Of a DNA stretch of 64,000 bases, positions 13,226-50,742 are shown in pieces (position 1 is the stretch's first letter; the number at the start of each line of letters is the position of its first letter). The notes under the pieces are model-generated. The model had not been told where the DNA came from, made no database searches, and worked only from the letters and a program-made list of their open reading frames with translations. The DNA comes from a virus (taxonomy: Duplodnaviria; Heunggongvirae; Uroviricota; Caudoviricetes). The stretch covers positions 19,489 through 83,488 of IMG/VR virus record IMGVR_UViG_3300036876_000145; one strand, given 5' to 3'. The position numbers were made by a program, and so were the translations under genes.

Positions 13226-15322
13226 ATGGGTCTTCAAGAATACACCACAGCGCTAAACGCGAAACTAGAAAAAGCACGGGACGCTTATTACAAGAAGGGC
13301 GAACCCGTGATGTCCGATGCTGAATATGACGCTCAGGAAAAAGAGTTGGCGGATATAATATCGGCTAATCCTCAATTGAAGGTGTTCGCCCCTGTACTCC
13401 ATACAGTGGGTTCCGATGTAACGGCCTCTGGAAGAGTGAAGCACAGCCGTCCCATGCTCAGCATTGAGAACAAATACACTGTTGATGACTTTGTGGAATG
13501 GGCTAAGAAAATATGGGCAGGATATCCCGACGCCAAATTCTGCTTAGAGCCAAAATTTGATGGTGTGAGCGTAGAATTAAGGTATAGGCATGGAAAATTG
13601 CATCAAGCCGTTTCCCGCGGTACGGGCAGTGAAGGAGAAGATTGCACTTTACAGGTAATGGCGATCAAATCCATTCCAAAAACAGTACCTAATAGTTTTC
13701 CAAATGTGTTTGACATTCGGGGAGAAATGGTCATGCGGAATGACACCCTTGAACGTCTCAACGCTGAGGCCCAAAAATATGGGGGTAAAATTTATCAGTC
13801 CACCCGTAATCTAACAGCGGGTACCATGAAAAAGCAAGACGCTAAAATTGTAGCTAGTCGTGACCTTGAATATAGACCTTGGGAAGTGACAGGTTCAGAT
13901 TTAAATGATAGTGGGTTTGCCCGCTTGGATATGCTTGTTGATGCGGGGTTTGTCGCTCCCTTGGGAGAACTGGTAGAAGATGAAGCTTCACTACGAGCTG
14001 TTTTAGCGAAGAAACTTAAGGAGCGCACAACTAAACTTCGTGATATTCTTTCCTTGGAAACTGATGGCGTAGTCATTAAAGTAGATTCGAATGCTTTACG
14101 CACACAGTTAGGAGTTGCTTCTAAATATACCAACTGGCAAACCTGCTTCAAACCCCAATCTGCCTCTGGTACTACGTATCTACGCAGCATCGAATGGCAG
14201 GTAGGACGAACAGGAAAATTGTCTCCTGTTGCGGAATGTGACCCCGTGATACTGGCTTCCGCGAAGGTCGAACACGCCAGTCTTAACAACATCTCCTGGA
14301 TTAAAGAAAAAGGTTTGAAACTGGGGGCAAAGGTAGAAATGCTGCGATCCGGGGATGTGATCCCTCAAATCGTTCGTGTGATTGACGAAGGGGATGATGA
14401 AATCATTCCACCAACAAAATGTCCGGAATGCGCTGGAAAAGTTGTGGAGATGGATGAGGGCGGAGTAGGCATCATTCAACATTTTTGTACCAATCAAGCA
14501 TGCCCCGGTATTCTACGGGGGTATTTGGCTTTTATTGGTAGTAGGGATGTACTAGAAATCGATGGGTTGGGTCCAGAAGCAGCAAGAACACTAGTGAAAG
14601 AGGAAGGGATCCATGATCTGGCTGGGCTTTTTAATTTTTATAATAGATGCCAAGATAAAAGACTCTCCATGGATACAAATAAAGAATTTATCGCCTATGC
14701 TCGAATGATAGGATTTGATGCCACTCTTCCCAAAATGTTGGATTCCTTAGAGAAGGCTAAAACCGCTCCTTGGGAGCGTTGGATCAAAGCTTTGGGGATT
14801 CCTATGATTGGGGAAACTCATGGTAAAGCTTTGGTGACATTTTTTAAGCTCACCCCAGAGAGCTTCAAAGATTTATGGCAAATTACCCAAAACTTGGAAG
14901 AGAACAAAATTGAGGGTATAGGGCCGCAGAAAATAAAAGCTTTATCTGAATGGGGGGCGAACCCTGACAACAAAGTTTTGTGTTTGTCATTATTCAATTT
15001 AGGTGTGCGTCCTACTCCTCCGGAAACGCCTAAAATAGTAGCTGGGGCACCTCTAAGTGGTATTATTTTCTGCATTACAGGGGAGTTTGACGAAGATAGA
15101 AACTCTCTTATCAAGAAACTTGTTAGCTTAGGGGCCGAATCTAAAACTGGTGTAACCAAAAAAATAAATCTTTTGATCGTTGGTGATGACGCGGGAAAAA
15201 CTAAGTTGACTAAAGCCGCAGAATTAGGTATAAAACAAGTAGGGAAAGATTGGCTCGTTAAAACTTTGTCCGATAGCGGCATTAAAATGTCGCAAAATAA
15301 CTTTGTTCCAGAGCAGGCGTAA
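13226..15322 (+). CDS. ligA: NAD-dependent DNA ligase
   Basis: Ia domain YYKKGEPVMSDAEYD, adenylation KxDG (EPKFDGVSVEL), OB domain, Cys4 zinc finger CPECAGKV...CTNQACPG, HhH region, C-terminal BRCT. Confidence 0.9.
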   Translation: MGLQEYTTALNAKLEKARDAYYKKGEPVMSDAEYDAQEKELADIISANPQLKVFAPVLHTVGSDVTASGRVKHSRPMLSIENKYTVDDFVEWAKKIWAGYPDAKFCLEPKFDGVSVELRYRHGKLHQAVSRGTGSEGEDCTLQVMAIKSIPKTVPNSFPNVFDIRGEMVMRNDTLERLNAEAQKYGGKIYQSTRNLTAGTMKKQDAKIVASRDLEYRPWEVTGSDLNDSGFARLDMLVDAGFVAPLGELVEDEASLRAVLAKKLKERTTKLRDILSLETDGVVIKVDSNALRTQLGVASKYTNWQTCFKPQSASGTTYLRSIEWQVGRTGKLSPVAECDPVILASAKVEHASLNNISWIKEKGLKLGAKVEMLRSGDVIPQIVRVIDEGDDEIIPPTKCPECAGKVVEMDEGGVGIIQHFCTNQACPGILRGYLAFIGSRDVLEIDGLGPEAARTLVKEEGIHDLAGLFNFYNRCQDKRLSMDTNKEFIAYARMIGFDATLPKMLDSLEKAKTAPWERWIKALGIPMIGETHGKALVTFFKLTPESFKDLWQITQNLEENKIEGIGPQKIKALSEWGANPDNKVLCLSLFNLGVRPTPPETPKIVAGAPLSGIIFCITGEFDEDRNSLIKKLVSLGAESKTGVTKKINLLIVGDDAGKTKLTKAAELGIKQVGKDWLVKTLSDSGIKMSQNNFVPEQA

Positions 15323-25162: not shown

Positions 25163-25309
25163 TCTTGACAAATTTTCCAACTATCAGTATTATATAAAGA
25201 GTAGTTGGTTCGGAACGAGCCATCAGGCGTTAACGTAGAAGTATTAAATTCAAGCGTAGCCTGAGAATCTTTATGTGGGGGAGAACCCGCATTTAAAAAA
25301 GAAGTTCAA
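25163..25309 (+). repeat. ~145-bp direct repeat copy 1 (promoter plus conserved leader)
   Basis: Near-identical to 35663-35808. Confidence 0.8.
25166..25194 (+). promoter_or_regulatory. sigma70-type promoter (TTGACA-17-TATTAT) heading tRNA cluster 1; part of the 145-bp repeat
   Basis: cTTGACAaattttccaactatcagTATTATat, near-consensus. Confidence 0.55.
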
Positions 25310-25362
25310 CTAGTAGCTCCAACGGGGTGTGTTTGCGTAAAGCAATTAAAGAAACACTGATA

Positions 25363-25388
25363 GCCGCCGATTAAGGCGGCTTTTTTAT
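25363..25388 (+). terminator. rho-independent terminator
   Basis: gccgccgattaaggcggc followed by tttttt. Confidence 0.6.
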
Positions 25389-25392
25389 TTTA

Positions 25393-25481
25393 AGGAAGTG
25401 TGGGTGAATGGTTAAACCAGCGGTTTGCTAAGCCGCCGAAGCCTGAAAGGGCTATCCGAGTTCGAGCCTCGGCACTTCCGC
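25393..25481 (+). tRNA. tRNA-Ser (GCT), type II
   Basis: Acceptor ggaagtg/cacttcc, anticodon loop ttGCTaa, long variable arm, T-arm tccgagttcgagcctcgga, CCA encoded. Confidence 0.8.
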
Positions 25482-25515
25482 CATAACATCAAAACAAACT
25501 TTCTGTGTTCTTAGC

Positions 25516-25965
25516 ATGGACACTAAAATAGTTTGTAGGGAAAAACGGCATCGTTGGGCTAAAAGGCGTAGGCAAGATCCTAAATTTTTACCTAGCATTA
25601 TTTGGCGAGATTCTCGTAGCTCAGATAAAAAATTGCTTCGGGAAAATGATCTTGACAAAGACTTTATTAAGGATAAAATTAGCAATGGATGTTTTTACTG
25701 CGGAGAGACAAAAATAAGGATGACCTTGGATAGAATAGATAATAGCTTAGGTCATTTAAAGACGAATGTCAATCCAGCATGTATGCGATGCAACTATCTA
25801 CGCAGGGACATGCCATACGATGCCTGGTTGTTTTTAGTTGAAGGTATTCGTAAAGCCACAGAGCAGGGAGCTTTTAACGGATGGCTAGGCGGTAACACTA
25901 GTAAATATGCTGGTGGGGAAGATTTAATGGACTTCATCGAAGTCGGTGAAGGTCCAGAAGAGTAA
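25516..25965 (+). CDS. HNH endonuclease
   Basis: CFYCG...LDRIDNSLGHLKTNVNPACMRCN HNH motif; inside the tRNA cluster. Confidence 0.7.
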   Translation: MDTKIVCREKRHRWAKRRRQDPKFLPSIIWRDSRSSDKKLLRENDLDKDFIKDKISNGCFYCGETKIRMTLDRIDNSLGHLKTNVNPACMRCNYLRRDMPYDAWLFLVEGIRKATEQGAFNGWLGGNTSKYAGGEDLMDFIEVGEGPEE

Positions 25966-26064
25966 AAATTCGCAGCGGTGTTGCGTACAGTTACTTCGAT
26001 ACCCACTGGGGGAAACCCGGCAGTGGAGTTGTACCAACTGTATGTTTTATGTTCCCTGCGATTT

Positions 26065-26153
26065 GATGACATGGGGGAGATGGATTAACCCAGTAGCTTG
26101 GAAAGCTACCATACCGCAAGGTATCGATCGTTCGAATCGGTCTGTCATCGCCA
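26065..26153 (+). tRNA. tRNA-Ser (GGA), type II
   Basis: Acceptor gatgaca/tgtcatc, anticodon loop ttGGAaa, long variable arm, T-arm gatcgttcgaatcggtc, CCA encoded. Confidence 0.7.
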
Positions 26154-26158
26154 AGTTT

Positions 26159-26245
26159 AGAGAGTAACCAGTGGGCATGGTAGGTCGCCTCGAAAGCGAC
26201 TGCTTCTAGAAATAGGGCACACCGGTTCGAGTCCGGTACTCTCTG
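26159..26245 (+). tRNA. tRNA-Ser (CGA), type II
   Basis: Acceptor agagagt/actctct, anticodon loop ctCGAaa, long variable arm, T-arm accggttcgagtccggt, no encoded CCA. Confidence 0.65.
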
Positions 26246-26252
26246 CCTTTAC

Positions 26253-26351
26253 CGAGAGATGGGCGAGATGGATTATGCCGCCAGTCTTGAAAACTGGTAT
26301 ACCGTAAGGTATCAAGGGTTCGAATCCCTTTCTCTCGGCCAACTTTATGGT
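26253..26351 (+). tRNA. tRNA-Ser (TGA), type II
   Basis: Acceptor cgagaga/tctctcg, anticodon loop ctTGAaa, long variable arm, T-arm aagggttcgaatccctt, CCA encoded. Confidence 0.7.
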
Positions 26352-26370
26352 ATTATCGTAAGGAGTTACG

Positions 26371-26691
26371 ATGAAGAGAAAAAATAAACCACTGTTGTCC
26401 ATTGAGAACGCACGAGAATTTAACGCCAAAATAGAGTGGGAAGGAAGTTTGGATTATGTTTTGCAGAACTGGGATTTTAAAGAATTCAAAGATAAAAAAT
26501 TCAATAGTTTGCGAAAAGCGTACATTAAGGCCCACCAGGATATGATGGATTATTGCTATCTGGATAGAGTTCTAGAAGATACCACCGAACCATCAGATCT
26601 CGATGAATCTGACCGCTGCCCTTCTTGTGGAGATGCGCTGGAATTAAACGGTACATGTTATACATGTACGGGTGAGCAAAATGAGAATTAA
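26371..26691 (+). CDS. hypothetical protein with C-terminal zinc ribbon
   Basis: 106 aa; CPSCGD...CYTC. Confidence 0.45.
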   Translation: MKRKNKPLLSIENAREFNAKIEWEGSLDYVLQNWDFKEFKDKKFNSLRKAYIKAHQDMMDYCYLDRVLEDTTEPSDLDESDRCPSCGDALELNGTCYTCTGEQNEN

Positions 26692-26947
26692 GCTCATCGT
26701 TAGAAAAAATTTGCACATGAGTGAAAATAAGCAATCCGCTCAATGTGTACATGCAGCTCTAGGGCTTTACAAAAAAAATCCGCAGGATCATTGGTCATGC
26801 GTGGTGCTGGATGCTAGCGATAAAAAATTCGAGGAAGCAAAAGAAGCGCATCCAGAGGGATATGTAGTGACCGATGCGGGCTACACGGAAATTCCAGCGG
26901 GCAGTGAAACTGTTTTGGCTTTCTATGAGGATGACCCCAGAGAATAA
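26681..26947 (+). CDS. peptidyl-tRNA hydrolase, PTH2 family
   Basis: MRIKLIVRKNLHMSENKQSAQCVHAALG resembles the PTH2 N-terminal signature (KMVLVVRTDL...GKIAAQCSHA). Sits inside the tRNA cluster. Confidence 0.65.
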   Translation: MRIKLIVRKNLHMSENKQSAQCVHAALGLYKKNPQDHWSCVVLDASDKKFEEAKEAHPEGYVVTDAGYTEIPAGSETVLAFYEDDPRE

Positions 26948-27135
26948 TGCTGATTCATTGTGATCGATGTAAGCGAAAAGTTGAAGGCGATTTTCACGAA
27001 AGGTTTACCTGCGGATTTTACGATGTAAGCTTGGGTTGTTGGAGAAAATACGCCAGGAATTACGAGACCATTATTTGCGATGAATGTATGCATGCAGACC
27101 CGCAGTATATACAAAATTATGGAGTTACAAGATAG
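26947..27135 (+). CDS. zinc-ribbon mini-protein
   Basis: 62 aa; CDRCKRK ... CDEC. Confidence 0.4.
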   Translation: MLIHCDRCKRKVEGDFHERFTCGFYDVSLGCWRKYARNYETIICDECMHADPQYIQNYGVTR

Positions 27136-27218
27136 GCCCGGATGGCGAAATTGGAAGACGCGCTCGGCTTAAGATCGAGTCCGAAAGGGTGGGGGTTCGA
27201 GTCCCCCTCTGGGTACCA
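27136..27218 (+). tRNA. tRNA-Leu (TAA), type II
   Basis: Acceptor gcccgga/tctgggt with two G-U pairs, anticodon loop ctTAAga, variable arm, T-arm gggggttcgagtccccc, CCA encoded. Confidence 0.65.
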
Positions 27219-27230
27219 AAATTTGGATGT

Positions 27231-27325
27231 GGTGGGCAGCACTGGTGTGCGGCTGAGCCTTATAAACTCGGGAAAGCTCCAGATTAGAGCGACGGCGTGG
27301 GTTCAACTCCCCGGCCCACTACCAA
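27231..27325 (+). tRNA. tRNA-like gene with a non-canonical anticodon loop (9-nt loop containing TTATAAA)
   Basis: Acceptor ggtgggc/gcccact plus ACCA. Imperfect T-arm gtgggttcaactcccc. Anticodon stem ctgag/ctcgg encloses ccttataaa. Confidence 0.3.
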
Positions 27326-37860: not shown

Positions 37861-37952
37861 ACTTTGAGCGAGTTACGTGGAAGGCAACTTTGTTCATGGA
37901 GGGCAACGACCAAAGCGACTCGCTCAATAAGTTTTGAAGTTTGAAGTCATGA

Positions 37953-38030
37953 TACACGTAGCTCAATTGGTAGAGCAGCGCCATTAACGGCGCTGATGTG
38001 GGTTCGATCCCCACCGTGAGGAAGGCTTCT
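37953..38030 (+). tRNA. tRNA-like gene with a non-canonical anticodon loop (attaac) and a poorly paired acceptor end
   Basis: D-arm tagctcaattggtagagc, anticodon hairpin gcgcc-attaac-ggcgc, T-arm gtgggttcgatccccac. Only about 4 acceptor base pairs. Confidence 0.3.
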
Positions 38031-41461: not shown

Positions 41462-42778
41462 ATGATGAAAAAAGAAATGACCCTTTTGGGTCTAGTCGCC
41501 GCTACGTATTTTATGGTAAGCGGAGGCCCGTACGGTCTAGAAGACCTAATTGCTCAAACTGGTTACGGATGGGGAATACTCATTCTTTGCTTAGTGCCCT
41601 TCCTGTGGGCACTGCCAACCGCTATGATGGTTGGTGAACTCGCCTCTGCGATACCGAATCGCGGGGGTTTTTATATTTGGGTGCAACGTGCCCTTGGAAA
41701 ATTTTGGGGATTCCAGGAAGCTTGGCTTTCATTAGCGGCTTCCATATTTGATATGGGAATCTACCCGCTACTTTTTATTTCTTACCTGGGTGTATTGGCT
41801 CCAAGTTTCACCGCAGGGTGGCACGGCTCGCTTATAGCAACGGCTCTAATCGCTGTTTGCGTATTGTGGAACCTTCGGGGTGCCAAAGCTGTAGGAAACG
41901 GCTCTGTGGCGTTAGGAGCCCTTATGGTGAGCCCTTTTGTGATTATCACCCTAGCAGCTCTCCGACACGCCCATCTGACCCATGTTACGGGTCATCCTCA
42001 CGCCGTCAGTCTTATGGGCGGTATTATGGTCGCTATGTGGAACTTCATGGGTTGGGATAACGCCAGCACCATAGCCACAGAAGTCAAAAAACCTCAACGA
42101 ACCTACCCCATCGCCATGATGGTGACTATGCTGTTGATTGTTGGAAGCTATATTCTCCCCGTAGCAGCGTCTTGGTATCTGGGAGTACCCCTGTCTGCCT
42201 GGTCAACAGGGAGTTGGGCGACTATTGGTGAAATCATCGCGGGTTCTTGGGTACGAGACGCCATTGTACTGGGTGGAATGATCAGTGCAGCGGGGATGTT
42301 GAACTCCCTCATGATGAGCTATTCTCGTATTCCCCCAGCGCTGGCTGAAGATCATTATCTGCCTCGCATATTCACAAAAATAAATGCAGTGTCAGTTCCC
42401 ATGATAGCTTTATTTGCCTTGGCGACAGTTTGGGCAACAGCGTTCGGTTTGAATTTTGACCGTCTGGTGATGCTGGATATTTTACTTTATGGAACGAGTC
42501 TTATTCTGGAGTTTATCGCTTTAGTGGTATTGCGTTGGAAAGAACCAGATTTGCCTCGACCTTTTCGTGTGCCTGGGGGAAAATTGGGCGCTATCTTGGT
42601 AGGAGTTTGCCCAACGATACTTCTCTTCGCGGCCGGTATTTTTGGGGATCATAACGGACTATTGCTAGGCTTAGGCATGATTCTATCCGGGGTGGGTGCT
42701 TGGTGTGGAATTCATGGATTTCGTGCCGCTAAATATGAAAAAATCGCTCCCACTTTCTCAACTACCACGATCCCCTAA
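41462..42778 (+). CDS. APC-superfamily amino acid/polyamine permease
   Basis: 12-TM pattern; N-terminal GGPYGLEDLI...GELASAIPNRGGFYIWVQRALG typical of amino acid permeases. Confidence 0.85.
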   Translation: MMKKEMTLLGLVAATYFMVSGGPYGLEDLIAQTGYGWGILILCLVPFLWALPTAMMVGELASAIPNRGGFYIWVQRALGKFWGFQEAWLSLAASIFDMGIYPLLFISYLGVLAPSFTAGWHGSLIATALIAVCVLWNLRGAKAVGNGSVALGALMVSPFVIITLAALRHAHLTHVTGHPHAVSLMGGIMVAMWNFMGWDNASTIATEVKKPQRTYPIAMMVTMLLIVGSYILPVAASWYLGVPLSAWSTGSWATIGEIIAGSWVRDAIVLGGMISAAGMLNSLMMSYSRIPPALAEDHYLPRIFTKINAVSVPMIALFALATVWATAFGLNFDRLVMLDILLYGTSLILEFIALVVLRWKEPDLPRPFRVPGGKLGAILVGVCPTILLFAAGIFGDHNGLLLGLGMILSGVGAWCGIHGFRAAKYEKIAPTFSTTTIP

Positions 42779-49802: not shown

Positions 49803-49835
49803 AGTGTTTCCGATGTATACTAGGGATGGAGGCGA
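49803..49835 (+). promoter_or_regulatory. TGTATACTAGGG-type promoter-like element (copy A of a 40-bp duplicated block)
   Basis: atccattttcagtgtttccgatgtatactaggga is identical to 51907-51939. Extended -10-like TGTATACT sits about 10 nt before the ATG. Confidence 0.4.
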
Positions 49836-49836
49836 T

Positions 49837-50742
49837 ATGACAAAGAAAAGTAGCTCTGATGTGGCGGCTGATTTGAAAAGTGCAATGGGTTCCGCTGCCG
49901 ATGCAAAGACTATTCTCGATACACCAGATAAGAAAACCGCCAGCCGTTCCACATGGAAGGGTTATATTTCCGCTTTTGGCGTTATGCTGATTCCCGCCGC
50001 AACCCTGAAAGCCACTGATGTTGATGCTATCGAAACCCACATGTACCATAGCGCTGCTTGTCCGAATCGTTTGGTGCAGAAATACACCTGCTCTTGCTGC
50101 GACACCGAAGTCCCCAACGCTCGTACAAACGCCCTTAAGGGTGTAGAAGTGGGGGACAAAGTCATTACTCTCACTCAAGCGGAATTAGACGCTCAGAAGC
50201 CCACTAGTGACAAAATTCTCAAAGTCACCGAGTTTGTTCCCGCTGATGCGATTGATGTTACCTACTACGAATCCAGCGAATACATCGCCGCTGATAAGGG
50301 TGGGGAAAAAGCCTTCGCCACATTCCAGCAAGCCTTGGCGCAAACGGGGCGTATCGCTATCGGCACCTTCGTAAGCCGCGGTCACCAATACACTGTTGCA
50401 CTTCGCCCCAAGGGTCAGTATGGTATCGTCATGTCTTATTTGTTCGCGGAATATGAAGTTCGCAACTGCGGCAAGTGGACGCCTGTTGTTGTCAATCCGG
50501 CAGAAGTTGATTTGGTCAAGCAGCTTATGACTGAAACCGAACTGGCAAAAGAAGTATTCACCCCCGCCGCCTATGACCCCTATCTCTCTGGCGTGCGCAA
50601 GATGATTGCTGCTAAGGCAAATGGTACGGAAGTTTGCACCCCGGCTGCGGACGAAGTTCCCAAGGCTACGGATGATTTGTTGGCGGCGTTGAAAGCTACC
50701 CTGGAGCAGCAAAAGGCAAAGGCTGCAAAGGCTGGTGTATAA
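49837..50742 (+). CDS. ku: Ku protein (non-homologous end-joining DNA end-binding)
   Basis: WKGYISAFGVMLIPAATL, YYESSEYIAADKGGEKAFATFQQALAQTGRIAIGTFVSRGHQYTVALRP, YLFAEYEVR match bacterial Ku (WSGAISFGLVNVPVKLY, YYLAPDKGGEKAYALLREAL...AIARFV...LAALRP, YADEVR). A Cys-rich insert HMYHSAACPNRLVQKYTCSCCD. Confidence 0.85.
   Translation: MTKKSSSDVAADLKSAMGSAADAKTILDTPDKKTASRSTWKGYISAFGVMLIPAATLKATDVDAIETHMYHSAACPNRLVQKYTCSCCDTEVPNARTNALKGVEVGDKVITLTQAELDAQKPTSDKILKVTEFVPADAIDVTYYESSEYIAADKGGEKAFATFQQALAQTGRIAIGTFVSRGHQYTVALRPKGQYGIVMSYLFAEYEVRNCGKWTPVVVNPAEVDLVKQLMTETELAKEVFTPAAYDPYLSGVRKMIAAKANGTEVCTPAADEVPKATDDLLAALKATLEQQKAKAAKAGV

What the first reader, a model, noticed from the sequence alone, without database searches (positions are those of the whole stretch)
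25393..27325. tRNA cluster 1: four serine isoacceptors, Leu(TAA), an aberrant tRNA, an HNH endonuclease and a PTH2 peptidyl-tRNA hydrolase
Ser GCT, GGA, CGA and TGA together read all six serine codons. An archaeal/eukaryotic-type PTH2 hydrolase (26681-26947) sits inside the cluster. This suggests the element manages peptidyl-tRNA drop-off for its own tRNAs. The HNH gene inside a tRNA array suggests a homing or mobile history for the cluster.
Basis: partly seen in the sequence, partly recalled or inferred. Interest (0 to 1): 0.55.

Follow-up and report, generated by a model that had tools for sequence, protein, structure and literature searches.

The report
Phage tRNA island with unusual AUA-tRNA
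The region is an ordinary tRNA, PTH2 hydrolase and nuclease island of a probable huge phage, but its "aberrant" tRNA is an intact member of a widespread, oddly shaped tRNA family that most likely reads the rare isoleucine codon AUA.

Summary
ARAGORN finds Ser-GCT, GGA, CGA, TGA and Leu-TAA at the stated coordinates. ORF 26681-26947 is a short PTH2 (Pfam 46 bits; model pLDDT 95; best PDB fold matches all Pth2). ORF 25516-25965 is HNH/EndoVII-like by PHROGs only.

The new result concerns the "aberrant tRNA" (27231-27324), which is not a pseudogene. It has a 7-bp acceptor stem, a 4-bp D stem with a UGGU tetraloop, and a 6-bp anticodon stem with loop CUUAUAA (anticodon UAU). It also has a long variable arm, a 5-bp T stem, A73 and an encoded CCA. 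A covariance model built without it scores it 86.6 bits.

Homologues occur in 25 IMG/VR contigs and 28 full-length (30 pattern-matching) bacterial MAG loci, mostly Terriglobia and Alphaproteobacteria. They always sit inside tRNA arrays and always carry UAU. Covariation is strong: 21 of 28 pairs have double changes.

ATA is frequent here (14 per 1000 codons). Across 129 conserved sites it aligns with Ile or Val, not Leu or Ser.

Most likely it is a TilS-independent AUA decoder, related to the published allo-tRNA(UAU) and analogous to nematode nev-tRNA(UAU). PTH2 and homing nucleases near phage tRNA arrays are already known. Charging identity is untested.

The parts
25165..25193 (+). sigma-70-like promoter (TTGACA-17-TATTAT)
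   Evidence: It matches 11 of 12 consensus positions. The hexamers are conserved in the aligned upstream regions of L002 and L003. Function is inferred.
25198..25391 (+). About 170-nt structured leader ending in an intrinsic-terminator-like hairpin (25362-25381 plus a T run), 2 nt before the first tRNA
   Evidence: Fold energy is -59 kcal/mol, z = -3.7 against shuffles. The terminator scan finds the hairpin. The same promoter-leader-hairpin-tRNA layout occurs in L002 and L003, with the shared motif CTAGTAGCYCCAACGGGG. There is no Rfam match. Its role is unknown.
25394..25483 (+). tRNA-Ser(GCU), G73, CCA encoded
   Evidence: ARAGORN; Rfam tRNA 54.4 bits; sequence.
25516..25965 (+). 149-aa HNH/EndoVII-like zinc-finger nuclease ORF, inserted into the Ser tRNA array
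   Evidence: PHROG 1035 endonuclease VII E 1e-14, plus HNH PHROGs. PDB 4h9d HNH E 0.034 with CxxC...N...CxxCN kept but DH changed to DR. No Pfam hit. Absent from L002 and L003.
26065..26153 (+). tRNA-Ser(GGA), G73, CCA encoded
   Evidence: ARAGORN; Rfam tRNA 45.4 bits.
26159..26247 (+). tRNA-Ser(CGA), G73, 3' end GCC-U (no full CCA)
   Evidence: ARAGORN. Rfam matches only the tRNA-Sec model, at 26.7 bits. Sequence.
26253..26341 (+). tRNA-Ser(UGA), G73, CCA encoded
   Evidence: ARAGORN; Rfam tRNA 52.6 bits.
26371..26691 (+). 106-aa ORF with a C-terminal CxxC...CxxC zinc ribbon; its end overlaps the PTH2 start
   Evidence: Weak Zn-ribbon Pfam hit. PHROG 17752, unknown function. Its N-terminal 65 residues are 38% identical to the ORF upstream of PTH2 in L002.
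26681..26947 (+). Mini PTH2-type peptidyl-tRNA hydrolase (88 aa)
   Evidence: Pfam PF01981 46.4 bits. AF2 pLDDT 95.4. Foldseek best PDB hits are Pth2/Bit1. Lys17, Asp65 and Thr69 are invariant in 31 relatives.
26947..27135 (+). 62-aa Cys-rich (zinc-ribbon-like) ORF; its ATG overlaps the PTH2 stop (TAATG)
   Evidence: Only sub-threshold zinc-ribbon hits. No homologue in L001-L004 at E 1e-3.
27136..27218 (+). tRNA-Leu(UAA), A73, CCA encoded
   Evidence: ARAGORN; Rfam tRNA 50.3 bits.
27231..27324 (+). Class-II-shaped tRNA with anticodon UAU. Parts: acceptor GGUGGGC/GCCCACU, D arm GCAC-UGGU-GUGC, anticodon arm CUGAGC-CUUAUAA-ACUCGG, V arm GCUC-CAGAUUA-GAGC, T arm CG(U)GGG-UUCAACU-CCCCG, A73, CCA
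   Evidence: Family model R1 86.6 bits, E 3e-21. Homologues and covariation.

Best explanation
The region is a translation-support island of a probable huge phage; relatives sit on 438-463 kb contigs.

Shown:
- It encodes a complete serine isoacceptor set, tRNA-Leu(UAA), and a sixth, intact tRNA of unusual shape with anticodon UAU.
- It also encodes a shortened PTH2 peptidyl-tRNA hydrolase flanked by two small zinc-ribbon ORFs.
- An HNH/EndoVII-like ORF has been inserted into the Ser array.

Inferred: the UAU tRNA decodes AUA as isoleucine.
- The anticodon is written in the gene, so the tRNA needs no lysidine modification by TilS.
- AUA is common in this 44% GC element (14 per 1000 codons). 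It would be rare in the presumed high-GC hosts (Terriglobia-like; their arrays are 57-60% GC).
- tRNA-Leu(UAA) serves TTA in the same way.

Inferred: the mini-PTH2 releases tRNAs trapped as peptidyl-tRNA. Such tRNAs could arise from drop-off, from ribosome stalling, or after host attack on tRNAs. This would keep the small phage tRNA pool usable.

Inferred: the HNH-like gene is a selfish insertion that may once have promoted spread of the array, as SegB does in T4.

Inferred: expression probably starts at a conserved promoter and passes a structured leader and hairpin just upstream of the first tRNA.
For: tRNAs and anticodons.

Family membership of the sixth tRNA:
- The D-arm plus anticodon-loop pattern finds 24 IMG/VR contigs and 30 bacterial MAG loci.
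- Each of these sits inside an array of up to 38 tRNA genes.
- RNAalifold finds 27 pairs, 17 of them with compensatory changes.
- On 38 sequences that exclude the window, 97.3% of cells are paired, against 28-45% for slid registers, and 21 of 28 pairs have double changes.
- The model built from those 38 sequences scores the window copy 86.6 bits.
- The window's C31.A39 mismatch and its T-stem bulge both recur in other members.

The body is dedicated to AUA:
- There is one copy per locus and no paralogue with another anticodon.
- Freeing the anticodon in the pattern adds only one more UAU member.

Meaning of ATA:
- ATA makes up 22% of Ile codons, 14.3 per 1000.
- In 49 ortholog pairs, 129 window ATA sites align with I 0.41, V 0.22, L 0.05 and essentially no S. 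The partner codons are ATC 41, ATT 8 and ATA 4. This is the same profile as ATT and ATC, and unlike Leu codons, which align with L at about 0.7.

Isoleucine-compatible features:
- A73 is invariant. The loop C32-U33-U34-A35-U36-A37-A38 equals the E. coli tRNA-Ile1 loop with G34 changed to U (own knowledge of that sequence).
- The L002 variant keeps a canonical class-I D arm with U12-A23.

PTH2. Adjacency to the tRNA cluster in the window, L002, L003 and L005.

HNH insertion.

Promoter, leader and hairpin.
Against: - No aminoacylation or expression data exist, so the charging identity is inferred.
- The conservation of CUUAUAA is partly forced by the search pattern.
- The body resembles tRNA-Sec and allo-tRNA, which are SerRS substrates. 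A73 plus a long V arm is the LeuRS signature used by nematode nev-tRNA(UAU) (PMC3333845).
- Mukai et al. found six allo-tRNA(UAU) species inactive as amber suppressors in E. coli, and proposed non-translational roles (PMC5389517).
- The acceptor stems show no consistent resemblance to co-resident tRNA-Ile(GAU).
- Many tRNAs in the Terriglobia arrays are irregular, for example C33, so those arrays may not be ordinary translation sets.
- The hairpin plus T run directly upstream of the first tRNA would, if it terminates efficiently, oppose transcription from the proposed promoter.
- The window contains no virion hallmark gene, so 'phage' rests on relatives.
- The host is not identified.
Confidence: 0.55

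Rival explanations
1. The UAU tRNA is charged by LeuRS or SerRS, not IleRS. It then inserts Leu or Ser at AUA, giving either deliberate ambiguous decoding or host-directed mistranslation. Nematode nev-tRNA(UAU) (Leu) and active allo-tRNAs (Ser) behave this way.
For: - The tRNA has a long variable arm and an invariant A73.
- nev-tRNA-Ile(UAU) has the same combination and is leucylated, not isoleucylated (PMC3333845).
- The compact D arm with a tetraloop and the 6-bp anticodon stem resemble tRNA-Sec and allo-tRNA, which SerRS accepts (PMC5389517).
- The Rfam tRNA-Sec model is the only Rfam hit.
Against: - Window ATA codons behave as Ile codons across 129 conserved sites (I 0.41, V 0.22, L 0.05, S about 0). 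They make up 1.4% of all codons, so systematic Leu or Ser insertion would damage the element's own proteome.
- All four Ser tRNAs here have G73, while this tRNA has A73.
- The D loop lacks the features of the co-resident tRNA-Leu.
- The body is never found with any other anticodon. This fits an anticodon-reading synthetase such as IleRS better than anticodon-blind LeuRS or SerRS.
Confidence: 0.15
2. The UAU tRNA is not a translation adaptor. It could be a decoy, regulator or target mimic linked to toxin-antitoxin or tRNA-targeting conflicts. It could also belong to a 'shadow' tRNA set whose odd shapes escape host or competitor tRNases.
For: - Mukai et al. found allo-tRNA(UAU) species inactive in E. 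coli and often near TA systems or transposons.
- Co-resident tRNAs in Terriglobia arrays are irregular.
- The window copy has a C31.A39 mismatch and a bulged T stem.
- The island also carries PTH2, and an RlaP-type nucleotidyltransferase lies nearby. Both have been linked to tRNA damage and repair conflicts (PMC7824862).
Against: - Every helix of a full cloverleaf is maintained by compensatory change, and A73-CCA is invariant. That is what selection for aminoacylation and ribosome use would give.
- The tRNA occupies a regular slot in near-complete polycistronic tRNA sets, where it is the only UAU anticodon.
- 'Escape from tRNases' is compatible with it still being a working AUA decoder, so this idea is only partly a rival.
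Confidence: 0.2
3. The window copy is a decaying pseudogene of that family, as the word 'aberrant' implies.
For: - ARAGORN does not call it in the window.
- Its folding energy is not better than shuffles (z = -0.9).
- It has a T-stem bulge and a C.A mismatch next to the anticodon loop.
Against: - It scores 86.6 bits full-length against the family model, the same as L003 and within the family range of 82-105 bits.
- All 7 acceptor pairs are intact, with A73-CCA.
- The same bulge occurs in L016, L021, L050 and L053, and the 31-39 position is unpaired in 12 of 38 members.
- The copy is identical in the independent contig L005.
Confidence: 0.05

Closest known systems
allo-tRNA(UAU) group (Mukai et al. 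2017, NAR; PMC5389517)
   Same: Both have a UAU anticodon, a long variable arm, a D arm with a tetraloop and a 6-bp anticodon stem. Both are found in Acidobacteria, Proteobacteria and soil or peat metagenomes, and in polycistrons of irregular tRNAs. This is probably the same or an overlapping set of genes.
   Different: allo-tRNAs are defined by an 8/4 or 9/3 acceptor branch and mostly G73 or U73. This family is 7/5, with covariation in all 12 pairs, and has an invariant A73. allo-tRNAs carry 35 different anticodons, whereas this body carries only UAU. They judged the group untranslated; the array context and ATA=Ile evidence here argue for decoding.
nev-tRNA-Ile(UAU) of nematodes (Hamashima et al. 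2012; PMC3333845)
   Same: Both are class II tRNAs (long V arm) with anticodon UAU and a conserved A73. Both coexist with ordinary Ile tRNAs and target a low-usage Ile codon.
   Different: nev-tRNA is eukaryotic, derived from tRNA-Leu(UAA), and shown to be leucylated. It is not homologous to this family, which has a tRNA-Sec-like compact D arm. In this element the ATA codons evolve as Ile codons.
Bacterial tRNA-Ile(UAU) AUA decoders that bypass TilS (Mycoplasma mobile, PMC3575796; B. subtilis tilS suppressor, PMC3919564)
   Same: The UAU anticodon is encoded in the gene, so AUA is read without lysidine (titles and abstracts). This is the proposed working principle here.
   Different: Those are ordinary class I tRNAs. 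This family has a long variable arm and a minimal D arm, and it is carried by phages and tRNA arrays.
PTH2 of jumbo phages (Iyer et al. 2021, PMC7824862; XacN1 ORF295, PMC5852040)
   Same: An archaeo-eukaryotic-type Pth2 is encoded by large phages that also carry many tRNAs. A role in recycling peptidyl-tRNA and in ribosome rescue has been proposed.
   Different: This clade is shortened to 87-103 aa, against about 115-120 aa. It falls below the NCBIfam equivalog cut-off (43.6 against 82 bits). It is often embedded in or next to one particular tRNA cluster.
Homing endonucleases beside tRNA arrays (T4 SegB; Anabaena all8564 HNH; PMC8421152)
   Same: A free-standing nuclease gene is lodged between tRNA genes and is absent from the same site in relatives.
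   Different: SegB is a GIY-YIG enzyme. The ORF here is only weakly HNH-like and lacks the canonical catalytic His, so it may be inactive. No cleavage site is known.

Membership tests
Canonical bacterial tRNA (Rfam RF00005), for the four Ser tRNAs and Leu | Cloverleaf reaching the family gathering score, with an anticodon called | tested here: met
   ARAGORN calls all five. RF00005 scores 45-54 bits against a gathering score of 29 for Ser GCT, GGA, TGA and Leu TAA. Ser CGA is the exception: it matches only the tRNA-Sec model, at 26.7 bits.
Class-II-shaped tRNA(UAU) family defined here (model R1) | Full-length match to a covariance model built from members other than the window | tested here: met
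   86.6 bits, E 3e-21, model positions 1-94 of 94. Other members score 82-105 bits.
Class-II-shaped tRNA(UAU) family defined here (model R1) | Helices supported by compensatory changes (7-bp acceptor, 6-bp anticodon stem, 6-bp V stem, 5-bp T stem) | tested here: met
   21 of 28 pairs have double changes. 97.3% of cells are paired, against 28-45% when slid. The D stem never varies, but that is forced by the search pattern.
Class-II-shaped tRNA(UAU) family defined here (model R1) | Anticodon UAU only; A73 and CCA encoded | tested here: met
   All 53 full-length copies have UAU and A73, and all but L034 (ACUG) encode CCA. Freeing the anticodon in the IMG/VR scan adds only L061, which is also UAU. 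The anticodon was not freed in the bacterial-genome scan.
allo-tRNA (Mukai 2017) | 12-bp acceptor branch arranged 8/4 or 9/3 | tested here: not met
   There are 7 covarying acceptor pairs and 5 covarying T-stem pairs. The nucleotide at -1 is variable in the MAG copies, so there is no conserved eighth pair with A73. The apparent 9-bp stem in the window is not conserved in L003.
allo-tRNA (Mukai 2017) | Long V arm, long anticodon stem, tRNA-Sec-like D arm with tetraloop | tested here: met
   V stem of 5-6 bp, anticodon stem of 6 bp, D loop UGGY. The D stem is 4 bp here, not 6.
allo-tRNA (Mukai 2017) | Discriminator G73 or U73 (Ser identity) in most members | tested here: not met
   A73 is invariant.
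allo-tRNA (Mukai 2017) | Sequence identity with the published allo-tRNA(UAU) genes (for example Edaphobacter C40) | not testable with these tools
tRNA-Sec (Rfam RF01852) | Gathering score, UCA anticodon, 8/5 branch | tested here: not met
   27.4 bits against 47. The anticodon is UAU and the branch is 7/5.
PTH2 peptidyl-tRNA hydrolase (Pfam PF01981) | Profile match above the Pfam gathering score | tested here: met
   46.4 bits against 23, profile positions 3-97 of 115.
PTH2 peptidyl-tRNA hydrolase (Pfam PF01981) | Pth2 fold | tested here: met
   AF2 pLDDT 95.4, pTM 0.86. Foldseek best 14 PDB hits are all Pth2/Bit1 (1q7s, 3erj, 2zv3, 1wn2, 1xty, 1rlk) with TMq 0.50-0.79.
PTH2 peptidyl-tRNA hydrolase (Pfam PF01981) | Residues equivalent to the catalytic Lys and Asp of S. 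solfataricus Pth2 (K18, D86; recalled from the literature) | tested here: met
   Lys17 in ...MSENK..., and Asp65 and Thr69 in ...DAGYTE..., align with GKGK and DAGxT of the solved Pth2s. They are invariant in 31 relatives.
PTH2 peptidyl-tRNA hydrolase (Pfam PF01981) | Equivalog of archaeal Pth2 (NCBIfam TIGR00283 cut-off); full length about 115 aa | tested here: not met
   43.6 bits against a cut-off of 82. The protein is 88 aa, with about 16-25 residues missing between the first helix and the second strand. Hydrolase activity is untested.
HNH endonuclease | Profile match (Pfam PF01844 or related) | tested here: not met
   No Pfam family at E<=1. NCBIfam gives nothing meaningful.
HNH endonuclease | Beta-beta-alpha-metal motif with CxxC...[D]H...N...CxxC | tested here: inconclusive
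   PHROG endonuclease VII/HNH E 1e-14 to 5e-3. Aligned to HNH 4h9d, both CxxC pairs and the Asn are kept, but DH reads DR. A His follows 7 residues later.

The most novel reading that the evidence does not exclude
The family is a genuine isoleucine tRNA with class II architecture, which would be the first of its kind. On this reading it is a TilS-independent AUA decoder shared by Terriglobia and Alphaproteobacteria tRNA arrays and their huge phages. It would also explain the abundant allo-tRNA(UAU) genes that were set aside as untranslated. Its invariant long arm (GA in the loop, ACGG junction) may be a handle for a dedicated partner, or a way to keep U34 from reading AUG.
Probability: 0.4. 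Interest if true: 0.7.

Novelty: new variant of a known kind. Interest (0 to 1): 0.55.

Why it matters
AUA is the one sense codon that nearly all bacteria can read only after an essential anticodon modification (lysidine, made by TilS). If a mobile, gene-encoded UAU tRNA with a distinctive body is a working decoder, phages and tRNA arrays have a way to supply AUA decoding independently of the host.

It would also give a function to the most abundant group of 'allo-tRNA'-like genes in soil metagenomes. And it would be a rare case of a class II body on a non-Leu/Ser/Tyr/Sec tRNA in bacteria.

Practically, standard tRNA finders miss or mislabel it. ARAGORN failed on the window copy, and Rfam gives only a sub-threshold tRNA-Sec hit. 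AUA-decoding capacity of such phages is therefore under-annotated.

The PTH2 and HNH parts are confirmatory and do not add to what is known for jumbo phages.

Tried and rejected
- 9/3 or 8/4 allo-tRNA reading of the window copy. The 9-bp acceptor seen by the tRNA-Sec model and by RNAfold depends on two upstream bases. These are not conserved in L003 or the MAG copies. The 7-bp stem plus A73-CCA is what covaries.
- tRNA-Sec. The score is below the gathering threshold and the anticodon is wrong.
- Ochre suppressor (UUA in a 9-nt loop). In most members the loop closes to 7 nt with a sixth pair. TAA ends 44 of 99 window ORFs.
- AUA recoded to Ser or Leu. LigA aligned to bacterial homologues gave too few sites, only 10. 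The 49-ortholog codon test shows an Ile-like profile.
- Relatives among cultured phages. There are none by blastn, for either the region or the family consensus.
- Acceptor-stem similarity to co-resident tRNA-Ile(GAU) as an identity clue. This was uninformative.
- The leader motif CTAGTAGCYCCAACGGGG in IMG/VR. No match.
- Virion or phage hallmark genes among large window ORFs. None found, so 'phage' stays an inference from relatives.
- Obligatory PTH2-tRNA linkage. L001 and L004 carry the PTH2 without nearby tRNAs.


Full report
**1. Observation**

ARAGORN on the window gives 21 tRNA genes.
- Ser(GCT) 25394-25483
- Ser(GGA) 26065-26153
- Ser(CGA) 26159-26247
- Ser(TGA) 26253-26341
- Leu(TAA) 27136-27218

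Rfam's tRNA model scores four of them 45-54 bits. Ser(CGA) matches only the tRNA-Sec model, weakly. From the sequence, all four Ser tRNAs have G73 and Leu has A73. All but Ser(CGA) encode CCA.

The ORFs between them are as described.
- ORF 26681-26947 matches Pfam PTH2 at 46.4 bits against a cut-off of 23.
- ORF 25516-25965 has no Pfam hit. It matches PHROG endonuclease VII/HNH families, best E 1e-14.
- The same ORF weakly matches a solved HNH enzyme, 4h9d at E 0.034. Both CxxC pairs and the Asn are kept, but the catalytic 'DH' reads 'DR'.

So the inventory is confirmed, with HNH the weakest item.

**2. The 'aberrant' tRNA**

ARAGORN does not call it. Rfam gives only tRNA-Sec at 27.4 bits against a gathering score of 47, drawn with a 9-bp acceptor.

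Reading the sequence alongside relatives gives a different and consistent cloverleaf:
- 7-bp acceptor GGUGGGC/GCCCACU, with G1.U72
- a single A, then D arm GCAC-UGGU-GUGC
- 6-position anticodon stem, with C31.A39 unpaired here, and loop CUUAUAA (anticodon UAU)
- long variable arm GCUC-CAGAUUA-GAGC
- T arm CG(U)GGG-UUCAACU-CCCCG
- discriminator A73 and an encoded CCA

**3. Relatives**

The PTH2 protein has about 69 database relatives of 52-152 aa (most 86-103). Several lie on contigs of 164-454 kb. I fetched their loci.
- L005 is near-identical to the window.
- L003 (438-kb contig) carries Ser x4, Leu(TAA), then a homologue of the odd tRNA, then PTH2.
- L002 (454-kb contig) carries a 95-nt 'tRNA-Ile(tat)' directly upstream of Ser x4, then PTH2.

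L003 differs from the window by compensatory changes in the acceptor and V stems.

A pattern made of the D arm plus the anticodon loop found 24 IMG/VR contigs and 30 bacterial MAG loci. No cultured phage has it.
- The MAGs are mainly Terriglobia/Acidobacteriota and Xanthobacteraceae/Alphaproteobacteria.
- There the gene sits inside arrays of up to 38 tRNA genes. Some are on Mb-size contigs next to housekeeping genes such as miaA and thrB.
- In the viral contigs it likewise sits in clusters of up to 28 tRNAs.

**4. Is it a real structured RNA?**

RNAalifold on 22 sequences predicts 27 pairs, 17 of them with compensatory changes.

I then took 38 sequences that exclude the window and its close relatives and tested the cloverleaf written above.
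- 97.3% of cells are paired, against 28-45% for registers slid by 1-3 columns.
- 21 of 28 pairs show double changes.
- The covariation score is 0.68, against 0.18 for shuffles.
- The D stem never varies, but the search pattern forced that.

A covariance model from these 38 sequences scores the window copy 86.6 bits (E 3e-21, full length), L003 85.6 bits and the L002 variant 42 bits. Family members score 82-105 bits.

The window's two 'defects' are family traits. The pair next to the loop is unpaired in 12 of 38 members, and the T-stem bulge recurs in L016, L021, L050 and L053. The gene is therefore not a pseudogene.

**5. What kind of tRNA is it?**

- There is one copy per locus, and no paralogue with another anticodon.
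- Freeing the anticodon in the IMG/VR scan added only one further member, again UAU. It also added one class I tRNA(CAU) that shares the D arm.
- The branch is 7/5. All 12 pairs covary, and the base at -1 varies in the MAG copies, so there is no eighth pair with A73.
- A73 is invariant.

This fails the defining 8/4 or 9/3 feature of allo-tRNAs (PMC5389517) and their usual G73/U73. It does share their long V arm, long anticodon stem, tetraloop D arm, UAU anticodon and taxonomic range. [quoted passage not shown] I consider it likely, but unverified, that their UAU group overlaps this family (no sequences held).

The nearest functional analogue is nematode nev-tRNA-Ile(UAU). It is class II with A73, and it is leucylated (PMC3333845).

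**6. What does AUA mean here?**

- In 99 window ORFs, ATA makes up 22% of Ile codons, 14.3 per 1000. All three stop codons are used.
- LigA alone gave too few sites, only 10.
- I therefore fetched four more syntenic loci and compared 49 ortholog pairs codon by codon.

Result of the codon comparison, over 129 window ATA sites in conserved context:

| Aligned with | Value |
|---|---|
| Ile (residue) | 0.41 |
| Val (residue) | 0.22 |
| Leu (residue) | 0.05 |
| Ser (residue) | essentially none |
| ATC (partner codon) | 41 sites |
| ATT (partner codon) | 8 sites |
| ATA (partner codon) | 4 sites |

This profile resembles ATT and ATC (Ile 0.57-0.62). It is unlike Leu codons, which align with Leu at 0.60-0.76.

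ATA is thus an isoleucine codon in these genomes. A tRNA that put Leu or Ser at 1.4% of codons would be costly. Four further points fit this reading:
- the tRNA's fixed place in near-complete tRNA sets
- the invariant A73
- an anticodon loop equal to that of E. coli tRNA-Ile1 except for G34 changed to U (my recollection of that sequence)
- the L002 variant's ordinary D arm with U12-A23

Together these make a TilS-independent isoleucine AUA decoder the best-supported reading. It remains an inference, because no charging data exist.

The element is 40-51% GC, while the Terriglobia arrays are 57-60% GC. The window and L003 copies resemble the Terriglobia subtype in their V arm. The nearest cellular LigA hits are Acidobacteriota, at about 33% identity. 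These give a tentative host assignment, and a codon-supply rationale for both tRNA(UAU) and tRNA-Leu(UAA).

**7. PTH2**

- The 88-aa protein aligns to solved Pth2s with the GKGK Lys and the DAGxT Asp and Thr conserved.
- These residues (K17, D65, T69) are invariant in 31 relatives.
- The AlphaFold model has pLDDT 95.4. Its best 14 PDB matches are all Pth2/Bit1, with TMq 0.50-0.79.
- It is about 25 residues shorter than canonical Pth2 and falls below the NCBIfam equivalog cut-off.
- It is flanked by two small Cys-rich ORFs with overlapping starts and stops. The upstream one has a homologue upstream of PTH2 in L002.

PTH2 in jumbo phages is already described. A role in releasing peptidyl-tRNA during ribosome rescue after tRNA cleavage has been proposed for it (PMC7824862), and XacN1 has one too (PMC5852040). 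Adjacency to this tRNA cluster holds in four loci but not in L001 or L004.

**8. HNH**

In the window and L005 the ORF fills a 581-nt gap between Ser(GCT) and Ser(GGA). In L002 and L003 the four Ser genes are 4-15 nt apart, and there is no homologue of this ORF. L003 has a different HNH gene elsewhere. This supports an insertion, as with known homing endonucleases beside tRNA arrays (PMC8421152). Whether this copy is still active is doubtful, because the canonical His is missing.

**9. Expression**

A near-consensus promoter lies at 25165-25193. It is followed by a leader of about 170 nt that folds better than shuffles (z = -3.7). A GC hairpin with a T run (25362-25391) ends 2 nt before the first tRNA. 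The layout is conserved in L002 and L003. No Rfam family matches it, and its motif is absent from IMG/VR. Whether it attenuates or stabilises the tRNA transcript is unknown.

**10. Verdict**

The cluster, PTH2 and HNH are ordinary for huge phages. The 'aberrant tRNA' is the finding. It is an intact member of a widespread, covariation-supported, class-II-shaped tRNA family dedicated to the UAU anticodon.

It is most likely an AUA/Ile decoder (about 0.55). The rivals are Leu or Ser mischarging (0.15), a non-translational or tRNase-evading role (0.2), and a pseudogene (0.05).

On novelty, it is a new variant of a known kind: allo-tRNA(UAU), nev-tRNA and tRNA-Ile(UAU).

Noticed in passing
window 25165-25391: A conserved promoter is followed by a structured leader of about 170 nt (z = -3.7) and a terminator-like hairpin that ends 2 nt before the first tRNA. 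The same layout, with the motif CTAGTAGCYCCAACGGGG, occurs in L002 and L003. There is no Rfam match, and the motif is absent from IMG/VR.
   Followed up: partly
window 37952-38022: ARAGORN reports 'tRNA-???' here. The anticodon loop is only 6 nt (AUUAAC) and the acceptor stem pairs poorly. It is probably a degenerate tRNA in the second cluster.
   Followed up: partly
window 36646-37130: The second tRNA cluster carries all four CGN-box arginine anticodons (CCG, GCG, ACG, TCG), and TCT lies further on. Like the full Ser set, this goes beyond simple compensation for codon bias.
   Followed up: no
window 30675-33155 (also L003 from 11790 and L005 10995-13448): An 826-aa protein has Major Vault Protein shoulder and repeat domains (Pfam E 4e-26). 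It is conserved in the related huge-phage contigs. Vault-like proteins are unexpected in a phage-like element.
   Followed up: no
window 33432-34265: An RlaP-type nucleotidyltransferase (PHROG 388 E 5e-46; PF10127 in L005) lies between the two tRNA clusters. The relative L066 also encodes Thg1. This suggests a wider tRNA-maintenance theme.
   Followed up: no
window 13226-15322, 41462-42778, 49804-50742: The same element carries an NAD-dependent DNA ligase, an amino-acid permease and a Ku homologue. No virion hallmark gene was found in the window, so 'phage' is inferred from relatives.
   Followed up: partly
L003 5075-5220: A stretch of about 150 nt lies between Ser(TGA) and Leu(TAA). Its ends pair like an acceptor stem (GGGGCUU.../...GAGCUCC-A-CCA) and it has a CUUGGAA loop. 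It may be a tRNA-like gene with a large insertion. Neither ARAGORN nor Rfam calls it.
   Followed up: no
L060 4315-4384 (-): A class I tRNA with anticodon CAU carries the same unusual D arm (CAGCACUGGCGUGC) as the UAU family. This hints at an evolutionary link to a Met or Ile2-type tRNA.
   Followed up: partly
L010 6546-6939 and L018 11020-11322: Permuted (two-piece) tmRNA genes are encoded on viral contigs that also carry the UAU tRNA. This is consistent with alphaproteobacterial-type hosts.
   Followed up: no
L033 5301-5374, L035 2288-2361, L055 2758-2831: The co-resident 'tRNA-Ile(GAU)' genes of the Terriglobia arrays have the irregular anticodon loop CCGAUUA, with C33 in place of U33. The arrays hold many non-canonical tRNAs.
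   Followed up: no
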